From IMG/VR virus record IMGVR_UViG_2778261267_000002: a stretch of 39,741 nt of DNA; one strand, 5' to 3'. The notes below the pieces were generated by a model. That model saw only the letters and a list, made by a program, of their open reading frames with translations. It searched no databases and was not told the DNA's origin. This document shows, one piece after another, positions 6,487-38,583 of this stretch; position 1 is the first letter of the stretch; the number at the start of each line of letters is the position of its first letter. The stretch is from a virus. Taxonomy: Duplodnaviria > Heunggongvirae > Uroviricota > Caudoviricetes. The position numbers were made by a program, and so were the translations under genes.

Positions 6487-6855
6487 TCAGGCGGCTTTGA
6501 TAGTCATATCATCTGAATCAAATATTCCTGATGTATCGATATCGGTAATTCTTATTCCTTCGCTACCATCCATTGGAGGCCATCCTTCCTGACCATTTCC
6601 ATCATTCCAGTCGAACTCACACATAACACCATATGCATTTAAGTCGCTTGAAATTGCTATAAGCAGAGCATGTTGCGCCAGCATGATTAATACAGCATTT
6701 AATACAGAGCCGTGTTTATTGAGTCGGTATTCAGAGTCTGACCAGAAATTATTAATCTGGTGAAGTTTTTCCTCTGTCATTACGTCATGGTCGATTTCAA
6801 TTTCTATTGATGCTTTCCAGTCGTAATCAATGATGTATTTTTTGATGTTTGACAT
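6487..6855 (-). CDS. Acidic hypothetical protein (122 aa)
   Basis: Clean ORF with strong Asp/Glu bias; sits in the ral/ea position between N-proximal terminator and cIII. Confidence 0.5.
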   Translation of the reverse strand: MSNIKKYIIDYDWKASIEIEIDHDVMTEEKLHQINNFWSDSEYRLNKHGSVLNAVLIMLAQHALLIAISSDLNAYGVMCEFDWNDGNGQEGWPPMDGSEGIRITDIDTSGIFDSDDMTIKAA

Positions 6856-15468: not shown

Positions 15469-15653
15469 ACGCCACAATTCAAACGATACCAGAGCTTCTT
15501 ATCCAGACACGAGGCAATCAGACCGAAGTGGCGAGGATGCTTTCCTGCGCAAGAGGAACAGTGCTCAAGTACAACCGAGACAGCAAAGGCGAGCGTCACG
15601 TAATAGTTAACGGCGTCCTGATGGTCAAACAGGGCAAGAGGGGAAGACCATGA
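15465..15653 (+). CDS. ninH: NinH
   Basis: ...GNQTEVARMLSCARGTVLKY...HVIVNGVLMV... matches lambda NinH. Confidence 0.7.
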   Translation: MNATIQTIPELLIQTRGNQTEVARMLSCARGTVLKYNRDSKGERHVIVNGVLMVKQGKRGRP

Positions 15654-16273
15654 GACTCGAAAGCGTAGCTAAATTTCATTCGCCAAAAAGCCCGATGATG
15701 AGCGACTCACCACGGGCTACGGCTTCTGACTCTCTTTCCGGTACTGATGTGATGGCTGCTATGGGGATGGCACAATCACAGGCCGGATTCGGAATGGCTG
15801 CATTCTGTGGTAAGCACGAACTCAGCCAGAACGACAAACAAAAGGCTATCAACTATCTGATGCAATTTGCACACAAGGTATCGGGGAAATACCGTGGTGT
15901 GGCAAAGCTCGAAGGAAATACTAAGGCAAAGGTACTGCAAGTGCTCGCAACATTCGCTTATGCGGATTATTGCCGTAGTGCCGCGACGCCGGGGGCAAGA
16001 TGCAGAGATTGCCACGGTACAGGCCGTGCGGTTGATATAGCAAAAACAGAGCAGTGGGGGAGAGTTGTCGAGAAAGAGTGCGGAAGATGCAAAGGCGTCG
16101 GCTATTCAAGGATGCCAGCAAGCGCCGCATATCGCGCTGTGACGATGCTAATCCCAAATCTTACCCAACCCACCTGGTCACGCACTGTTAAGCCGCTGTA
16201 TGACGCTCTGGTGGTGCAATGCCACAAAGAAGAGTCAATCGCAGACAACATTTTGAATGCGGTCACACGTTAG
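15650..16273 (+). CDS. Q: Late-gene antiterminator Q (lambda Q)
   Basis: 207-aa protein matching lambda Q essentially end-to-end, including the zinc-binding CRDCHGTG...CGRCKG region. Confidence 0.9.
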   Translation: MRLESVAKFHSPKSPMMSDSPRATASDSLSGTDVMAAMGMAQSQAGFGMAAFCGKHELSQNDKQKAINYLMQFAHKVSGKYRGVAKLEGNTKAKVLQVLATFAYADYCRSAATPGARCRDCHGTGRAVDIAKTEQWGRVVEKECGRCKGVGYSRMPASAAYRAVTMLIPNLTQPTWSRTVKPLYDALVVQCHKEESIADNILNAVTR

Positions 16274-16315
16274 CAGCATGATTGCCACGGATGGCAACAT
16301 ATTAACGGCATGATA

Positions 16316-16345
16316 TTGACTTTTTGAATAAAGTTGGGTAAATTT
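16316..16345 (+). promoter_or_regulatory. Late promoter pR' with overlapping qut site
   Basis: TTGACT -35 and TAAATT -10 in a sequence near-identical to the lambda pR'/qut region. Confidence 0.7.
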
Positions 16346-16351
16346 GACCCA

Positions 16352-16545
16352 ACGATGGGTTAATTCGCTCGTTGTGGTAGTGAGATAAAAAGAGGCGGCG
16401 CTTACTACCGATTCCGCCTAGTTGGTCACTTCGACGTATCGTCTGGAACTCCAACCATCGCAGGCTGAGAGGTCTGTAAAATGCAATCCCGAAACAGTTC
16501 GCAGGTAATAGTTAGAGCCTGCATAACGGTTTCGGGATTTTTTAT
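16352..16545 (+). ncRNA. 6S late leader RNA (pR' transcript terminated at tR')
   Basis: Region between pR' start and tR' is near-identical to the lambda 6S RNA template. Confidence 0.45.
16487..16545 (+). terminator. tR' Rho-independent terminator
   Basis: Long hairpin CCCGAAACAG...CGGTTTCGGG followed by ATTTTTTAT, matching lambda tR'. Confidence 0.7.
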
Positions 16546-17346
16546 ATCTGTGTAACAGGTAAGAGCATTCTCCCTTATGGGGCTTGGCTTAAATGCACCG
16601 AGTGCTCTTATCGTTGTGGCAGCACAACGATAGTTTTCGTCAGAGTTGGCGACTTTGCGGTTTTTTAGAAACTGACCACAAAGATAAATGCAAACGATGA
16701 TGTTGTTCTGATGGCGGCGTAATAGCCTGTAAGTCAGCAAGGTCTTCCGACTCCTTGTAAACAAATTCGGCGCACTGGCCCGGTGTGATTAATAATGGGC
16801 ACACAACAGGTAAGAGCATTAAAGAACTGGCAAAGAGCTTAACGGTCTGCGAAAGCATTTCTTAGTGGCACAACTGGCCGGTACAACTGAGTGCTCTTTC
16901 CGGTGTGGTGAATGCGCAGGCTGATGCGCGCAGGAGAGCTTCGGAAGAACAAGGTGCCTGTATACAAGCCGGAGATCAGCGCCGGCCACCACAGCCAAAT
17001 CCACCCAGAGCAAAACCGTTGTTCATCCTTACCATTCCCTCAGTATTTTGGGCTACAACCCTCAGCCCATTTTTTAAAGCGTACTTCCACCAAGAACCAG
17101 ACCTAACCAACTCATTGCTGACACTCTGTGGATACGGTTGTCTAGTGCGCTTTAAAAAAGAAAACCCAGCATCAATGGCTGGGCTTCGTGATATGAGCGG
17201 CATGTATTGTTGGCGCAATCCACGCCTGATTTGCTCATGAATGCGGTCACGAACAAGCCCGTTACAAATAAACCGTAACCCGGATTTGTTCAAGCGACCA
17301 TATCCATAATTCCTAATTTGAACAGATCCCCTTCTGGGGGTAAGAC

Positions 17347-17670
17347 ATGAAGATGCCAGAAAAACATGACCTGTTAGCCGCCATTCTCGCGGCAAAGGAA
17401 CAAGGCATCGGGGCAATCCTTGCGTTTGCAATGGCGTACCTTCGCGGCAGGTATAATGGCGGTGCGTTTACAAAAACAGTAATCGACGCAACGATGTGCG
17501 CCATTATCGCCTGGTTCATTCGTGACCTTCTCGACTTCGCCGGACTAAGTAGCAACCTCGCTTATATAACGAGCGTGTTCATCGGCTACATCGGTACTGA
17601 CTCGATTGGTTCGCTTATCAAACGCTTCGCTGCTAAAAAAGCCGGAGTAGAAGATGGTGGAAATCAATAA
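17347..17670 (+). CDS. S: Holin S (lambda S107/S105 dual-start)
   Basis: [34 protein letters not shown]... matches lambda S. Confidence 0.9.
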
Positions 17671-18130
17671 TCAACGTAAGGCGTTCCTCGATATGCTGGC
17701 GTGGTCAGAGGGAACAGATAACGGACGACAGAAAACCAGAAATCATGGTTATGACGTCATTGTAGGAGGAGAGCTATTCACTGATTACTCCGATCACCCT
17801 CGCAAACTTGTCACGCTAAACCCAAAACTCAAATCAACAGCCGCCGGACGTTACCAGCTTCTTTCCCGTTGGTGGGATGCCTATCGTAAGCAGCTTGGCC
17901 TGAAAGACTTCTCTCCGAAAAGCCAGGACGCTGTTGCACTACAGCAGATTAAAGAGCGTGGCGCTTTACCGATGATTGATCGCGGTGATATTCGTCAGGC
18001 TATCGACCGTTGCAGCAATATCTGGGCTTCACTGCCGGGGGCTGGTTATGGTCAGTTCGAGCATAAGGCTGACAGCCTGATTGCAAAATTCAAAGAGGCT
18101 GGCGGAACGGTCAGAGAGGTTGAGGTATGA
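17654..18130 (+). CDS. R: Endolysin R (lambda-type lytic transglycosylase)
   Basis: [39 protein letters not shown]... matches lambda R. Confidence 0.9.
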
Positions 18131-18564
18131 GCAGAGTAACCGCGATTATCTCCGCTCTGGTTATCTGCATCATCGTCTGCCTGTCATGGGCTGTTAATCA
18201 TTACCGTGATAACGCCATGACCTACAAAGAGCAGCGCGATAAAGCCACATCCATCATCGCTGATATGCAGAAGCGTCAACGTGATGTAGCAGAACTCGAC
18301 GCCAGATACACAAAGGAGCTTGCTGATGCTAACGAGACTATCGAAAGCCTCCGTGCTGATGTTTCTGCTGGTCGTAAGCGCCTGCAAGTCGCCGCCACCT
18401 GTGCAAAGCCAACGACCGGAGCCAGCAGCATGGGCGATGGAGAAAGCCCAAGACTTACAGCAGATGCTGAACTCAATTATTACCGTCTCCGAAGTGGAAT
18501 CGACAGGATAACCGCGCAGGTTAACTACCTGCAGGAGTACATCAGGACGCAATGCCTGAAATAA
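18127..18564 (+). CDS. Rz: Inner-membrane spanin Rz
   Basis: N-terminal TM segment plus coiled-coil; similar to lambda Rz; start overlaps the R stop. Confidence 0.85.
18320..18511 (+). CDS. Rz1: Outer-membrane lipoprotein spanin Rz1, embedded in the +1 frame of Rz
   Basis: Embedded ORF with signal peptide, lipobox-like LVVSAC and Pro-rich mature region. Confidence 0.6.
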
Positions 18565-18612: not shown

Positions 18613-18769
18613 CTTTTTTTACATCTGAATTTCACAGCGCATCTCACGCGCATATTACATCACCCGAGCCTTTCAGAAAGTTGAGCCTGAGAACTGCCGT
18701 ATATGGTGGCGACCATCTCGGGGCGGCTTTTCTGTGAGACAGGCTCACTTTCTAAAAGGTAAAGACGCT

Positions 18770-19288
18770 ATGAATCATCAATTGGCTAATCTCGATTTCC
18801 GGGACATGGTGGTTGTTTCTGGTGATCGCGTGATCACAACCTCCCGCAAGGTAGCAGCTTACTTCGACAAGCAGCATCACCACATCATTCAGAAAATCGA
18901 AAAGCTAGACTGTTCGGATGAATTTCTAACCAGCAACTTTTCGCGGGTTACCTATGAACACAAGGGTAATCAGTATGTTGAATATGAAATTTCCAAAGAC
19001 GGCGCGATGTACATCATCATGTCGTTTACCGGCAAAAAAGCTGCCGCCATCAAAGAGGCGTTTATCAAAGCATTTAATTGGATGCGTGACAGGCTGATGG
19101 AGATGGCTCACTCATACCAAAGAGAGCACAACGAGTTAATGCTGGAGTTCATGAAGGAAAAGGATGTTGCCAGTATGTCAGGACGCTTGCTGAACCGCTG
19201 GGGCAGGATCAAAAAACCGCAACTCATAGCAAGAATCGAAAGGCTTGAGCAGCAGGCGCAAATATCGATCCCCGGACTGCCAAAGTGA
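18770..19288 (+). CDS. Rha-family phage regulatory protein (longest ORF starts at 18734)
   Basis: N-terminal ...VVSGDRVITTSRKVAAYFDKQHHHIIQKIEKL... Rha/Bro-N like DNA-binding domain. Confidence 0.6.
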   Translation: MNHQLANLDFRDMVVVSGDRVITTSRKVAAYFDKQHHHIIQKIEKLDCSDEFLTSNFSRVTYEHKGNQYVEYEISKDGAMYIIMSFTGKKAAAIKEAFIKAFNWMRDRLMEMAHSYQREHNELMLEFMKEKDVASMSGRLLNRWGRIKKPQLIARIERLEQQAQISIPGLPK

Positions 19289-38002: not shown

Positions 38003-38302
38003 CAACTTGCACATAATAATATCTCTTTTTTTAGTTTCTGGTGATTGTATTGTTATACTATAATCACCAGAATAAAACTCAGTTAAAGTGAATTTTTCTT
38101 TATCAATAGATATATAATCAAGAGAACGAGCCTCGTTAAAAAATTCTTTTTCAAGGCTAAATTCTACATCATCTAGATGCACTTTGGACGCATTTGATGT
38201 GTTAACTTTAACAAGATGAGAACCACATACTATTTCATTTATCTTTGCGCTTGATGAATTACTAACCATAAAGGTAAGTATAAAAAACAAGTATTTAAAC
38301 AT
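37994..38302 (-). CDS. Small secreted protein (102 aa, signal peptide), AT-rich
   Basis: N-terminus MFKYLFFILTFMVSNSSSA; convergent with the membrane protein gene, overlapping by 9 nt. Confidence 0.45.
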   Translation of the reverse strand: MFKYLFFILTFMVSNSSSAKINEIVCGSHLVKVNTSNASKVHLDDVEFSLEKEFFNEARSLDYISIDKEKFTLTEFYSGDYSITIQSPETKKRDIIMCKLLR

Positions 38303-38583
38303 ATATCACCATCTTTGAAAAATATTCTACAAATAGTAGCATGAACATCATGCTAATTAAAGAAAGATTGCAAAACCATTTGCCATTTGTCAAGCACTTA
38401 GGTGATAAATGTATGGGGTTGTGATGTTTATATTTTAGTAAGTTCGTGATCATATAATTATTTACATGTAATGATATGTACCACATCAGGTGGTAGTATT
38501 TGTATCCACTTGAGGCAAAACTGAGAAACGCAAAGCTTTGTACTGGATTGCAAGGCTTTATGTCATTCGATAGTTAAGGTGGA

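What the first reader, a model, noticed from the sequence alone, without database searches (positions are those of the whole stretch)
16546..17346. Expanded late-operon leader with duplicated palindromic elements between tR' and the holin
The Q-to-S interval is ~1.07 kb, about 0.4 kb longer than in lambda as I recall it. The extra DNA contains two copies of a structured motif, CAGGTAAGAGCATT ... GAGTGCTCTT (16556..16612 and 16806..16900), whose ends are inverted repeats. This interval is the insertion hotspot where stx and tRNA genes sit in other lambdoid phages. No convincing ORF is present, so a structured RNA or a scar of a lost insert is possible.
Basis: partly seen in the sequence, partly recalled or inferred. 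Interest (0 to 1): 0.4.

Follow-up and report, generated by a model that had tools for sequence, protein, structure and literature searches.

The report
Phage tmRNA-like RNA lacking tRNA domain
The "extra" DNA between the late-gene activator Q and the lysis genes of this prophage is not a scar: it holds a conserved set of folded RNA modules, and the central one copies the message-carrying half of the bacterial ribosome-rescue RNA (tmRNA) without its tRNA-like half, which none of the annotated records or papers I could search describe.

Summary
AACAGGTAAGAGCATT (16554, 16805) and GAGTGCTCTT (16600, 16889) each occur exactly twice, and the Q-S gap is 1073 bp against 676 bp in lambda.

The repeats are the arms of two separate hairpin modules, not a duplicated unit. 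Lambda itself has one such module after tR'. Between them lies a 180-nt RNA (16628-16811). It carries the sequence that precedes a tmRNA resume codon, a start-less 10-codon tag frame (ANDDVVLMAA, then UAA UAG), a stop-codon hairpin, a second hairpin and an H-type pseudoknot. All helices are backed by compensatory changes. A cloverleaf-shaped module (16902-16996) and a second terminator follow.

A covariance model built without this window scores it at 171.7 bits. E. coli ssrA scores 6.3. Relatives occur in 758 of 50,697 phage records, including P1, HK620, and Felix-O1-like, Vi1-like and N4-like phages. They usually sit beside tRNA genes and in several phages behind their own promoter. None is annotated.

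The tag varies mainly at third codon positions, always keeps 10 codons and always keeps a stop, so it is probably translated. No tRNA-like domain is attached.

Best reading: a TLD-less tmRNA derivative acting on host trans-translation. The mechanism is inferred, not shown.

The parts
16316..16344 (+). PR' late promoter (TTGACT-17-TAAATT). Context: it drives the leader.
   Evidence: Promoter scan. Near-identical to lambda.
16485..16545 (+). tR' terminator of the short PR' transcript (15-nt arms plus a U-run). Context only.
   Evidence: Inverted repeat I2. Lambda-identical sequence.
16554..16612 (+). Hairpin module H1. Arms are GGUAAGAGCAUU (16558-16569) and GAGUGCUCUU (16600-16609). The interior contains the invariant GGGGCUUGGCUUAAAUGCA (16579-16597).
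   Evidence: and 105/106. Fold z = -3.8. The same interior follows the core in Felix-O1-like phages (Moogle, L084, L085) and lies upstream of it in L033 and L100. Arm covariation over 135 unique modules.
16609..16632 (+). Perfect 10-bp mini hairpin UAUCGUUGUG/CACAACGAUA followed by UUUU. It is terminator-like and specific to this prophage lineage.
   Evidence: (I10).
16628..16811 (+). tmRNA-like core RNA without a tRNA-like domain. It holds a leader with the invariant GUUUUCG, a possible PK1-like fold, the tag frame, two hairpins and a pseudoknot.
   Evidence: Covariance model R1, built without this window, matches full length at 171.7 bits, E = 7e-37. Weak Rfam tmRNA-family hits cover only the tag region.
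16684..16725 (+). AUAAAU, then resume codon GCA (16690-16692), a 10-codon tag ANDDVVLMAA (16690-16719), and stops UAA UAG (16720-16725).
   Evidence: In-register alignment to E. coli ssrA nt 80-123. Codon-position statistics. The same tag occurs in N4-like phage B2.
16708..16737 (+). Helix-5-like hairpin that encloses the stop codons (CUGA/UCAG plus an inner stem).
   Evidence: Helices 1 and 2 are 99.6% and 88.6% paired. The window carries the compensatory GC->AU variant.
16738..16757 (+). Hairpin B (CAAGG / CCUUG).
   Evidence: Helix 3: 99.7% paired, with UA<->CG (18 sequences) and GC<->AU (17 sequences) double changes.
16771..16800 (+). H-type pseudoknot. S1 is CGCAC (16771-75) with GUGUG (16783-87). 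S2 is GCCCG (16778-82) with UGGGC (16796-16800). The loop GAUUAAUAA is invariant.
   Evidence: S1 is 100% paired with three compensatory variants. S2 occurs in at least four different sequence and length versions, all complementary.
16805..16904 (+). Hairpin module H2. Arms are GGUAAGAGCAUU (16809-16820) and AGUGCUCUUUCC (16890-16901). The interior is unrelated to H1 and has a GAAA loop.
16902..16996 (+). Cloverleaf-shaped (tRNA-like) module D. It has a closing stem UGUGGUG/CACCACA, a D-like arm (16914-16929), a central arm, and a T-like arm (GCCGG 16968-72 / CCGGC 16982-86).
   Evidence: The MFE fold is a cloverleaf, z = -2.3. Compensatory variants occur in L046 and L008. Relative L036 has canonical D- and T-arms.
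17050..17075 (+). Second intrinsic terminator (GGGCU...AGCCC plus U6) that closes the RNA array.
   Evidence: Read directly from the sequence. The identical sequence is annotated as late terminator tQ in HK620.

Best explanation
WHAT IT IS (shown). The stretch 16554-16996 of the late leader is an array of structured-RNA modules on the + strand. The order is hairpin module H1, a 180-nt tmRNA-like core, hairpin module H2, and a cloverleaf-shaped module. The core holds the sequence context upstream of a tmRNA resume codon, a start-less 10-codon tag frame ending in stop codons that sit in a hairpin, a second hairpin, and an H-type pseudoknot. In effect it is the mRNA-like domain, helix 5 and a pseudoknot of tmRNA, without the tRNA-like domain. 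It is a full-length member of a family found in many unrelated phages of Enterobacteria and relatives.

HOW IT WORKS (inferred).
- In this prophage the array is made only when Q lets RNA polymerase read through tR'. In virulent phages it has its own sigma-70 promoter and is co-transcribed with tRNAs.
- The flanking hairpin and tRNA-like modules probably serve as processing sites (RNase III, RNase P type) that release the core as a discrete stable RNA.
- The core then engages the host trans-translation machinery. Because the tag shows peptide-level selection, the most likely role is as a tag template.
- Its helix 5 and pseudoknot would dock at the mRNA-channel entrance. Its -5..-1 bases would be read by SmpB delivered on host alanyl-tmRNA. 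Rescued ribosomes would then add a phage-specified tag (AND...LAVA, or ...MAA/VAA here) in place of the host ALAA degron.

Step confidences: structured-RNA family with a tmRNA-like mRNA domain, about 0.9. Tag translated, about 0.45. Template used in trans with the host TLD, about 0.25.
For: - Family membership: model R1, built without the window or HK620, scores 171.7 bits over the full model. It scores N4-like B2 at 158 bits, P1 at 87, Erwinia phage Aioli at 81, and E. coli ssrA at only 6.3.
- Structure: four helices are 89-100% paired, with 76 double-sided compensatory cells against 22 in shuffles, and 34-45% paired when partners are slid. Pseudoknot stem 2 exists as GCCCG/YGGGC, GCCCAC/GUGGGC, GCCCUGA/UCAGGGC and GGCGGGAG/CUCCCGCC.
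- tmRNA likeness: Rfam tmRNA-family models hit only here and at the same place in relatives. The profile aligns to ssrA nt 80-123 with resume codon, 10 codons and stop codon in register. ARAGORN reads the tag ANDNVFLAVA** in Moogle.
- Translation: across 66 distinct sequences, minor-allele counts are 54, 58 and 154 at codon positions 1, 2 and 3. The length is always 10 codons. A stop is always kept, as TAA, TAG or TGA. Synonymous variants occur (GAT/GAC, GAG/GAA, TTC/TTT, GCA/GCC, GTA/GTG). Position 6 stays aromatic (F/Y) in 65 of the 66 sequences; the window itself has Val there. No in-frame start codon lies between an upstream UAG and the GCA.
- Strand and expression: G.U pairs fit only the + strand. 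Promoters TTGACA-17-TAGATT (10/12) and TTGACA-17-TATAGT (11/12) sit directly upstream in swi2 and Moogle. The element is co-oriented with flanking tRNAs.
- Docking rationale: helix 5 and PK2 anchor tmRNA at the mRNA-channel entrance, and SmpB reads the five bases upstream of the resume codon (PMC8012679).
Against: - No tRNA-like domain is joined to the core. ARAGORN finds no tmRNA or tRNA in the window. The best Rfam tmRNA-family score is 26.3 bits against a gathering score of 47.
- I found no acceptor stem with G3:U70 plus CCA.
- In B2 the RNA ends in a terminator about 110 nt after the pseudoknot. In Felix-like phages only a simple hairpin follows.
- No trans-acting template has ever been shown for trans-translation. 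An untethered mRNA-like domain would have to compete with the host's own, which is tethered in cis.
- Part of the tag (codons 7-10) is also base-paired, so some of its conservation is structural.
- The sequences are related by descent, so the codon-position counts are not independent events.
- No expression or processing data were available.
Confidence: 0.45

Rival explanations
1. Decoy or competitor. The TLD-less RNA is not translated. It occupies the ribosomal site used by tmRNA helix 5 and PK2, or titrates S1, RNase R or the SmpB tail. This would damp host trans-translation during late infection.
For: - It lacks a TLD but keeps exactly the helix-5 and pseudoknot part that anchors tmRNA near the mRNA entrance (PMC8012679).
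- There is a precedent for a half-tmRNA in a phage. The TLD-only RNA of mycobacteriophage DS6A resembles a molecule shown to inhibit tmRNA strongly (PMC4131195; PMC11915505).
Against: A pure decoy does not need an open frame. Yet the frame is always 10 codons, always ends in a stop, and varies mainly at third positions with conservative replacements.
Confidence: 0.25
2. A true split (two-piece) tmRNA. One of the neighbouring tRNA-like modules (H or D) supplies the acceptor and T-arm, either fused to the core or base-paired with it after processing.
For: - 23 of 135 H-module interiors carry a canonical T-loop (GGUUCGAAUCC), in swi2 directly next to the 3' arm.
- Vi1-like phages carry T-arm + CUCCAAU-C-CCA after the core.
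- The D module is a cloverleaf.
- ARAGORN and the Rfam permuted-tmRNA model give weak permuted calls.
Against: - The neighbouring modules are not constant. There are none in B2 and a plain hairpin in Felix-like phages.
- No G3:U70, and no consistent CCA.
- The stem arms covary with their local partner, not across the core (L015, L023, L037, L054). A helix that closes the core onto a TLD is therefore contradicted.
- A search for a partner of the 5' motif found nothing.
Confidence: 0.12
3. Leader-processing and stability elements only. The hairpins are RNase III sites that shape the late lysis mRNA. The tmRNA-like part is an evolutionary relic carried along with them.
For: - Lambda has one H module right after tR'.
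- A 1988 paper reports RNase III processing sites in the lambda late leader. Only its title was seen, as cited in PMC7547250.
- The H stems are about 20 bp long.
Against: - The core is the most widely conserved part.
- It occurs away from any lysis genes, inside tRNA clusters and between tail genes, with its own promoter.
- A relic would not keep its frame, its stop codon and four covarying helices in at least eight phage groups.
Confidence: 0.1
4. DNA-level feature. It is a recombination 'linker', a scar, or a MITE-like element bounded by inverted repeats, with no RNA function.
For: - Mosaic joints coincide with the repeat arms.
- Modules come and go between phages.
- The tag segment has been swapped between this prophage and HK620.
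Against: - Compensatory changes keep the pairing.
- The conserved wobble is U.G, which would be an A.C mismatch on the other strand.
- Promoters and co-orientation with tRNAs point to transcription.
- Pseudoknot covariation has no DNA-level rationale.
Confidence: 0.04
5. Unannotated small protein genes lie in the interval.
For: Mechanical ORFs of 64-151 aa overlap the region on both strands.
Against: - No Pfam match.
- Not annotated in RefSeq or in HK620.
- The homologous DNA in other phages does not keep these frames. Indels and module swaps are frequent.
- The alternative AUG frame across the tag varies mostly at its second codon position.
Confidence: 0.02

Closest known systems
tmRNA (SsrA, Rfam RF00023), one-piece
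   Same: - The A-rich context upstream of the resume codon.
- A GCA resume codon.
- A 10-codon tag starting AND and ending in small hydrophobic residues plus Ala.
- Stop codon(s) in a helix-5-like hairpin.
- An H-type pseudoknot downstream.
- In-register alignment to E. coli ssrA nt 80-123.
   Different: - No acceptor stem, D-loop, T-arm or CCA.
- No helix 2.
- One downstream pseudoknot instead of three.
- About 180 nt instead of 363.
- Scores far below the family thresholds.
- The tag ends LAVA or (M/V)AA instead of ALAA.
Two-piece (permuted) tmRNA of alpha-proteobacteria, cyanobacteria and others (RF01849, RF04321)
   Same: The coding part is a separate piece from the acceptor part. RF04321 gives the best weak hits.
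   Different: In two-piece tmRNA the coding piece begins with the 5' acceptor strand and pairs with an acceptor piece encoded just upstream. Neither the strand nor a complementary partner is found here.
TLD-only tmRNA of mycobacteriophage DS6A
   Same: A phage carrying only half of a tmRNA (PMC4131195; PMC11915505).
   Different: It is the opposite half. DS6A keeps the tRNA-like domain and lacks the tag. This family keeps the tag and lacks the tRNA-like domain.
RNase III processing hairpins of the lambda late leader (Daniels et al. 1988; title only, cited in PMC7547250)
   Same: Lambda carries one H module at the expected place after tR'. The stem is about 20 bp long with internal mismatches.
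   Different: I could not verify that the published cleavage sites coincide with this hairpin. The H modules also occur in virulent phages, away from any late leader.
Phage tRNA gene clusters and the tRNA genes (ileZ-argN-argO) in the Q-stx interval of Stx phages
   Same: - Same genomic niche, from my own knowledge for Stx phages.
- Co-orientation and co-transcription with tRNAs in Felix-like, P1-like and sipho-type phages.
- The D module is cloverleaf-shaped.
   Different: ARAGORN and the Rfam tRNA model do not recognise any module here as a tRNA. The anticodon region is replaced by variable inserts.
Large phage-associated structured RNAs found next to tRNAs (GOLLD, ROOL)
   Same: They are phage-borne and tRNA-adjacent. 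They are built from many stems, GNRA loops and T-loops around variable regions (resemblance from my own knowledge).
   Different: No Rfam match to either. The hosts differ. Neither is known to carry a tmRNA-like tag frame.

Membership tests
tmRNA (SsrA) | Detected by dedicated tools at their thresholds (ARAGORN; Rfam RF00023 and clan at gathering score) | tested here: not met
   ARAGORN finds 0 genes in the window. The best Rfam hit is 26.3 bits against a gathering score of 47, and it covers only the tag region.
tmRNA (SsrA) | tRNA-like domain: 5'/3' acceptor stem with G3:U70, T-arm, 3' CCA | tested here: not met
   - Nothing of this kind is contiguous with the core in the window or in 40 cluster representatives.
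- Arms flanking the core pair locally, not across it.
- The B2 RNA ends in a terminator.
tmRNA (SsrA) | Start-less tag reading frame opening with a resume codon in a conserved upstream context and ending in a stop codon | tested here: met
   AUAAAU-GCA, 10 codons, then UAA UAG. It is in register with E. coli ssrA. There is third-position excess (54/58/154) and a stop in 66 of 66 sequences.
tmRNA (SsrA) | Helix 5 holding the stop codon, followed by pseudoknot(s) | tested here: met
   Helices 1 and 2 plus pseudoknot S1 and S2, all with compensatory changes. There is only one downstream pseudoknot.
tmRNA (SsrA) | PK1 immediately upstream of the resume codon | tested here: inconclusive
   A PK1-like fold can be drawn (AGUUUU/GAAACU and CUUUGCGG/CCACAAAG). 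The MFE fold contains the second helix. The positions are nearly invariant, so there is no covariation test.
tmRNA (SsrA) | Alanylation, SmpB and EF-Tu binding, tagging activity | not testable with these tools
   This needs biochemistry or proteomics.
Phage tmRNA-like core family (defined here, model R1) | Full-length match to a covariance model built from 38 other phages | tested here: met
   Window 16628-16811, 171.7 bits, E = 6.7e-37, model positions 1-182.
tRNA | Cloverleaf with canonical D- and T-loops and an anticodon arm, recognised by ARAGORN or RF00005 | tested here: not met
   Module D (16902-16996) folds as a cloverleaf, but neither tool calls it. Its T-like loop is not canonical, and it has no anticodon loop.
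RNase III processing site | A stem of about two helical turns that RNase III cleaves in vivo | not testable with these tools
   The stem length fits. The lambda literature was seen by title only.
Known prophage sRNAs of the Q-S interval (STnc100/PasD, AgvB, AsxR) | Rfam match | tested here: not met
   No such hit at 15500-18500, even at E <= 10.

The most novel reading that the evidence does not exclude
The core is a free-standing template for trans-translation. Host alanyl-tmRNA-SmpB rescues the ribosome, but the phage RNA is threaded instead of the host message. It docks through its own helix 5 and pseudoknot and is recognised by SmpB through its -5..-1 bases. Rescued proteins then receive a phage-chosen tag. 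That tag keeps the SspB-binding AAND..(F/Y) part but changes the ClpX degron (ALAA to LAVA, MAA or VAA). This would be 'tag swapping': the first trans-acting tmRNA message, and a new way for phages to rewire host protein quality control. The surrounding hairpin and cloverleaf modules would form a new class of modular phage RNA built on tRNA-like scaffolds.
Probability: 0.25. Interest if true: 0.92.

Novelty: new variant of a known kind. Interest (0 to 1): 0.78.

Why it matters
[quoted passage not shown] A conserved, apparently translated mRNA-like half that lives on its own in hundreds of phages questions how the message is chosen during ribosome rescue. This includes textbook phages such as P1 and HK620, and therapy-relevant Felix-O1-like, Vi1-like and Klebsiella phages.
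- It gives a directly testable handle. One can look for the predicted tags by mass spectrometry, with and without ssrA and smpB.
- It would add trans-translation to the host systems that phages reprogram, next to phage tRNAs that counter tRNA-targeting defences.
- Practically, it fills long "empty" intergenic gaps in many phage genomes and explains spurious ARAGORN tmRNA calls.
- It also shows that the lambdoid late leader, including that of lambda, is built from conserved RNA modules.

Tried and rejected
- Long-range pairing of the arm upstream of the core with the arm downstream, which would give an acceptor- or helix-2-like stem with a G.U at position 3. Rejected: in L015, L023, L037 and L054 the downstream arm covaries with the next arm, not with the upstream one. 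Promoter-bearing versions also lack the upstream arm.
- An acceptor partner for the invariant 5' motif GUUUUCG (YGRRRRC-N-CCA). Only scattered hits or genuine tRNA 3' ends turned up.
- Base-pairing of the core with host ssrA by duplexfold. The result was no better than shuffles and was uninformative (one search timed out).
- Homology to ssrA beyond the tag. nhmmer aligns only nt 80-123, and the family model gives ssrA 6.3 bits.
- The alternative AUG frame overlapping the tag (MQT...). Its variation falls on second codon positions, and the peptide is not conserved.
- Protein-coding ORFs. No Pfam hits.
- Known RNA families. Rfam 15 at E <= 10 returned only sub-threshold tmRNA-family hits.
- Chromosomal origin. 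Only 1 of 185,579 species-representative genomes carries the tag pattern.
- Literature. No paper in the library prints any of six tag peptides. Phage-tmRNA searches found only mycobacteriophage, Bacillus phage G and marine cases. The Pas-sRNA preprint on the Q-holin interval does not mention it.
- An automated scan for D modules with a loose 5' arm was too noisy. I replaced it with an anchored scan.
Full report
**1. The observation**

The window is a lambdoid prophage. Q lies at 15650-16273, followed by PR', qut and tR', then holin S at 17347 and endolysin R at 17654. The stretch 16546-17000 is 100% identical in many E. coli O26:H11 chromosomes.

AACAGGTAAGAGCATT occurs at 16554 and 16805 only, where 0.04 matches are expected even with two mismatches. 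GAGTGCTCTT occurs at 16600 and 16889 only. Each 5' motif is the inverted complement of the following 3' motif.

The Q-S gap is 1073 bp against 676 bp in lambda. The alignment shows a replacement, not an insertion. Identity with lambda runs through tR' and the first AACAGGTAAGAGCAT, then disappears until just before S.

Lambda itself has one hairpin of the same kind after tR': CACAACAGGTAAGAGCATTG...CCAGTGCTCTTTCCGTTGTG. The motif is therefore a normal part of lambdoid late leaders. What is special here is what lies between and after the two hairpins.

**2. The lead**

A permissive Rfam scan gave only one kind of hit. These were weak matches of tmRNA-family models at 16668-16771 (26.3 bits against a gathering score of 47). 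They came from AUAAAU GCA AAC GAU GAU GUU GUU CUG AUG GCG GCG UAA UAG. That reads as a start-less frame, ANDDVVLMAA, followed by two stops. It looks like a tmRNA tag (E. coli: ANDENYALAA). ARAGORN finds no tmRNA or tRNA anywhere in the window.

**3. Relatives**

The 174-nt core (16633-16806) matches 758 of 50,697 phage records. These span very different phage groups:
- HK620 and other lambdoid or P22-like phages.
- Felixounavirus and Mooglevirus, where it sits inside the tRNA cluster between tRNA-Ile and tRNA-Arg on the same strand.
- Ackermannviridae (Vi1-like).
- Klebsiella and Escherichia siphophages, where it lies in a 600-bp gap between oppositely oriented tail genes, upstream of tRNA-Arg and tRNA-Met.
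- N4-like Shigella phage B2, Erwinia Chaseviridae and an Aeromonas phage.
- P1 and P1-like plasmids, where it sits in the ban-operon leader between an annotated 'dicF-like region' and tRNA-Asn/Thr.

In E. coli complete genomes it occurs in 656 of 5,426, with 554 of 704 places on plasmids. Only 1 of 185,579 species-representative genomes carries the tag pattern, so it is essentially phage-borne.

No inspected record annotates it. The features under the matches are 'none' or short 'hypothetical protein' ORFs. In P1 the only feature is the neighbouring 'dicF-like region', which overlaps the match by a few bases.

In swi2 and Moogle a strong sigma-70 promoter sits immediately upstream: TTGACA-17-TAGATT (10/12) and TTGACA-17-TATAGT (11/12). 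In this prophage the element has no promoter of its own. It lies between tR' and a second terminator at 17050-17075, which HK620 annotates as tQ. It should therefore be made only under Q antitermination.

**4. Structure of the core**

On a 66-sequence alignment I named four nested helices and counted pairs.

| Helix | Cells paired | Compensatory changes |
|---|---|---|
| CUGG/CCAG, enclosing the stop codon | 99.6% | The window carries the compensatory CUGA/UCAG |
| Inner stem with the stop codon in its loop | 88.6% | CG<->UA in 17 sequences |
| Hairpin B | 99.7% | UA<->CG in 18, GC<->AU in 17 |
| Stem CGCAN/N'UGUG | 100% | CG<->UA or GC in 12, CG<->UA in 8 |

Overall there were 76 double-sided changes against 22 in shuffles. 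Only 34-45% of cells stayed paired when the 3' partners were slid.

The loop of the last stem pairs with sequence after the invariant GAUUAAUAA. This second stem exists as GCCCG/YGGGC, GCCCAC/GUGGGC, GCCCUGA/UCAGGGC and GGCGGGAG/CUCCCGCC. The two stems together form an H-type pseudoknot.

Upstream of the tag a PK1-like fold can be drawn. Its bases hardly vary, so it stays untested.

A covariance model built from 38 phages, excluding this window and HK620, finds the window at 16628-16811 with 171.7 bits over the full model. It scores B2 at 158 bits, P1 and SJ46 at 87, Aioli at 81 and E. coli ssrA at 6.3. It finds nothing in lambda and no convincing second copy in the window.

**5. The tag frame**

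A profile of the family aligns to E. coli ssrA only at nt 80-123, with resume codon, ten codons and stop codon in register.

Tags seen are ANEEMYLAVA, ANDEQFLAVA, ANDDQFLAVA, ANDNVFLAVA, ANDNTFLAVA, ANEEVYLAVA and others. P1 and SJ46 have ANDDLMMVAA, and Aioli has ANDSEMRVAA. ANDDVVLMAA occurs both in this window and in N4-like phage B2, whose DNA differs by one synonymous base in the tag.

Over 66 distinct sequences:
- Minor-allele counts are 54, 58 and 154 at codon positions 1, 2 and 3.
- The frame is always ten codons, although indels are common around it.
- A stop is always present, as TAA, TAG or TGA.
- Position 6 is F or Y in 65 of the 66 sequences. The window, with Val, is the exception.

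The overlapping AUG frame varies mostly at its second positions. No start codon lies between an in-frame UAG seven codons upstream and the GCA.

I read this as selection on the peptide, and hence translation that begins the way a tmRNA tag does. There are caveats. Codons 7-10 are also paired. The sequences are related by descent. My collection pattern fixed part of codons 1-4 and 7.

From my own knowledge (Flynn et al. 2001, which I could not retrieve), the conserved AAND..(F/Y) part corresponds to the SspB-binding half of the E. coli tag. The altered end (LAVA, MAA or VAA against ALAA) falls in the ClpX degron.

**6. The missing half**

I could not find a tRNA-like domain joined to the core.

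The arms upstream and downstream of the core could in principle pair across it, even giving a G.U at position 3. That is contradicted by covariation. In L015, L023, L037 and L054 the downstream arm has changed together with the next arm, not with the upstream one. Promoter-bearing versions have no upstream arm.

The neighbouring modules differ from phage to phage:
- A plain hairpin in Felix-like phages.
- Interiors with a canonical T-loop in 23 of 135 hairpin modules.
- A T-arm followed by CUCCAAU-C-CCA in Vi1-like phages.
- A terminator in B2.

Searches for a partner of the 5' motif and for pairing with host ssrA gave nothing.

**7. The other modules**

H modules have a strongly conserved stem, GGUAAGAGCAUU/AGUGCUCUUUCC, with a conserved U.U mismatch and a U.G wobble. 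Compensatory variants occur, for example GAUAAUUGCAUU/AGUGCAAUUAUC and GGUAAGCUGCUU/AGGCAGCUUUCC. Interiors are hypervariable, at 22-149 nt.

The interior of H1 (16570-16599) is the one found after the core in Felix-like phages. It includes an invariant 19-mer, which lies at 16579-16597 in the window.

The D module (16902-16996) folds as a cloverleaf. It shows compensatory changes in its D-like arm (L008) and T-like arm (L046). In L036 it has canonical D- and T-arms around a long insert.

In Klebsiella siphophages the array runs promoter, core, H, D, H, D, tRNA over 0.5-0.9 kb.

A 1988 paper reports RNase III processing sites in the lambda late leader. I saw only its title. The ~20-bp H stems are plausible candidates for those sites.

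**8. What it most likely does**

Shown: a conserved, + strand, structured RNA family whose core is the mRNA-like domain, helix 5 and a pseudoknot of a tmRNA without the tRNA-like domain.

Inferred:
- Late, Q-dependent expression here.
- Excision at the flanking modules.
- Action on host trans-translation.

The parts kept are those that anchor tmRNA at the mRNA-channel entrance (helix 5 and PK2) and those that SmpB reads (the five bases before the resume codon) (PMC8012679). A template acting in trans with host alanyl-tmRNA-SmpB is therefore mechanistically conceivable, and it fits the peptide-level selection. A non-translated competitor is the main rival. A split tmRNA that uses a neighbouring module is a weaker one.

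**9. Novelty**

- An exhaustive 2014 survey listed phage tmRNAs only in mycobacteriophages and Bacillus phage G, including the TLD-only DS6A (PMC4131195).
- In the main text and the held supplementary files of the 2025 tmRNA database paper I found no mention of an enterobacterial-phage form.
- No paper in the library prints any of six tags.
- Rfam 15 has no matching family.
- The detailed P1 annotation leaves the core blank.

I therefore rate it a new variant of a known kind: a TLD-less tmRNA derivative embedded in modular tRNA-like RNA arrays. The library lacks most subscription journals, so an earlier description cannot be excluded.

Noticed in passing
window 17050-17075: A second intrinsic terminator (GGGCU...AGCCC plus U6) lies about 300 nt upstream of S. 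The identical sequence is annotated as late terminator 'tQ' in HK620. This prophage therefore has both a lambda-type tR' and this terminator.
   Followed up: partly
window 16254-16266 and 17238-17250: An exact 13-nt direct repeat, TGAATGCGGTCAC, lies at the end of Q and again about 100 nt upstream of S. It brackets the whole leader and may be a recombination joint.
   Followed up: no
window 17161-17187 (- strand): A terminator-like hairpin plus T-run lies on the minus strand inside the leader (GAAGCCCAGCC...GCTGGGTTTT CTTTTTT). It could stop antisense transcription coming from the lysis side.
   Followed up: no
window 16628-16811 vs L001 (HK620) and L130 (Shigella phage B2): The window and HK620 are nearly identical on both sides, but the tag segment differs (ANDDVVLMAA against ANEEMYLAVA). 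The window's tag DNA equals that of an N4-like phage except for one synonymous base. This implies recombination inside the core between unrelated phages.
   Followed up: partly
L131 (phage P1) 805-1160: In P1 the core lies in the C1-controlled ban-operon leader. It sits directly after the annotated 'dicF-like region' and its terminator, and before tRNA-Asn and tRNA-Thr. An H-type hairpin follows it. The core itself is not annotated.
   Followed up: partly
L004 (Klebsiella phage cp21) 3194-3326: A sub-threshold Rfam hit to the prophage sRNA STnc100 (41.3 bits, gathering score 47) lies about 1.4 kb downstream of the core.
   Followed up: no
L036 (IMG/VR contig), about 220-330 nt downstream of the tag start: This D-type module has a canonical D-arm (GCUC-AGCGGGUUA-GAGC) and T-arm (GUCGG-UUCAAAU-CCGGC) around a ~60-nt insert. 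ARAGORN does not call it. It looks like a tRNA whose anticodon region has been replaced.
   Followed up: no
L005 (Citrobacter phage Moogle) and L003 (phage swi2): The Moogle record lists its tRNAs on the strand opposite to where ARAGORN finds them. ARAGORN also makes chimeric tmRNA calls. A 'tmRNA*' in Moogle borrows a distant tRNA-like piece but reads the real tag ANDNVFLAVA**. A false one in swi2 reads the tag as AKAVRLRKCSFRCGECAG*.
   Followed up: partly
window 38192-38304 and 6668-6833: Weak hits of the family model R1 (13-15 bits, E about 0.05-0.1) fall in AT-rich DNA. They are most likely noise.
   Followed up: no
window 18734-19288: A 184-aa ORF lies directly after the lysis genes. I did not examine it.
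   Followed up: no
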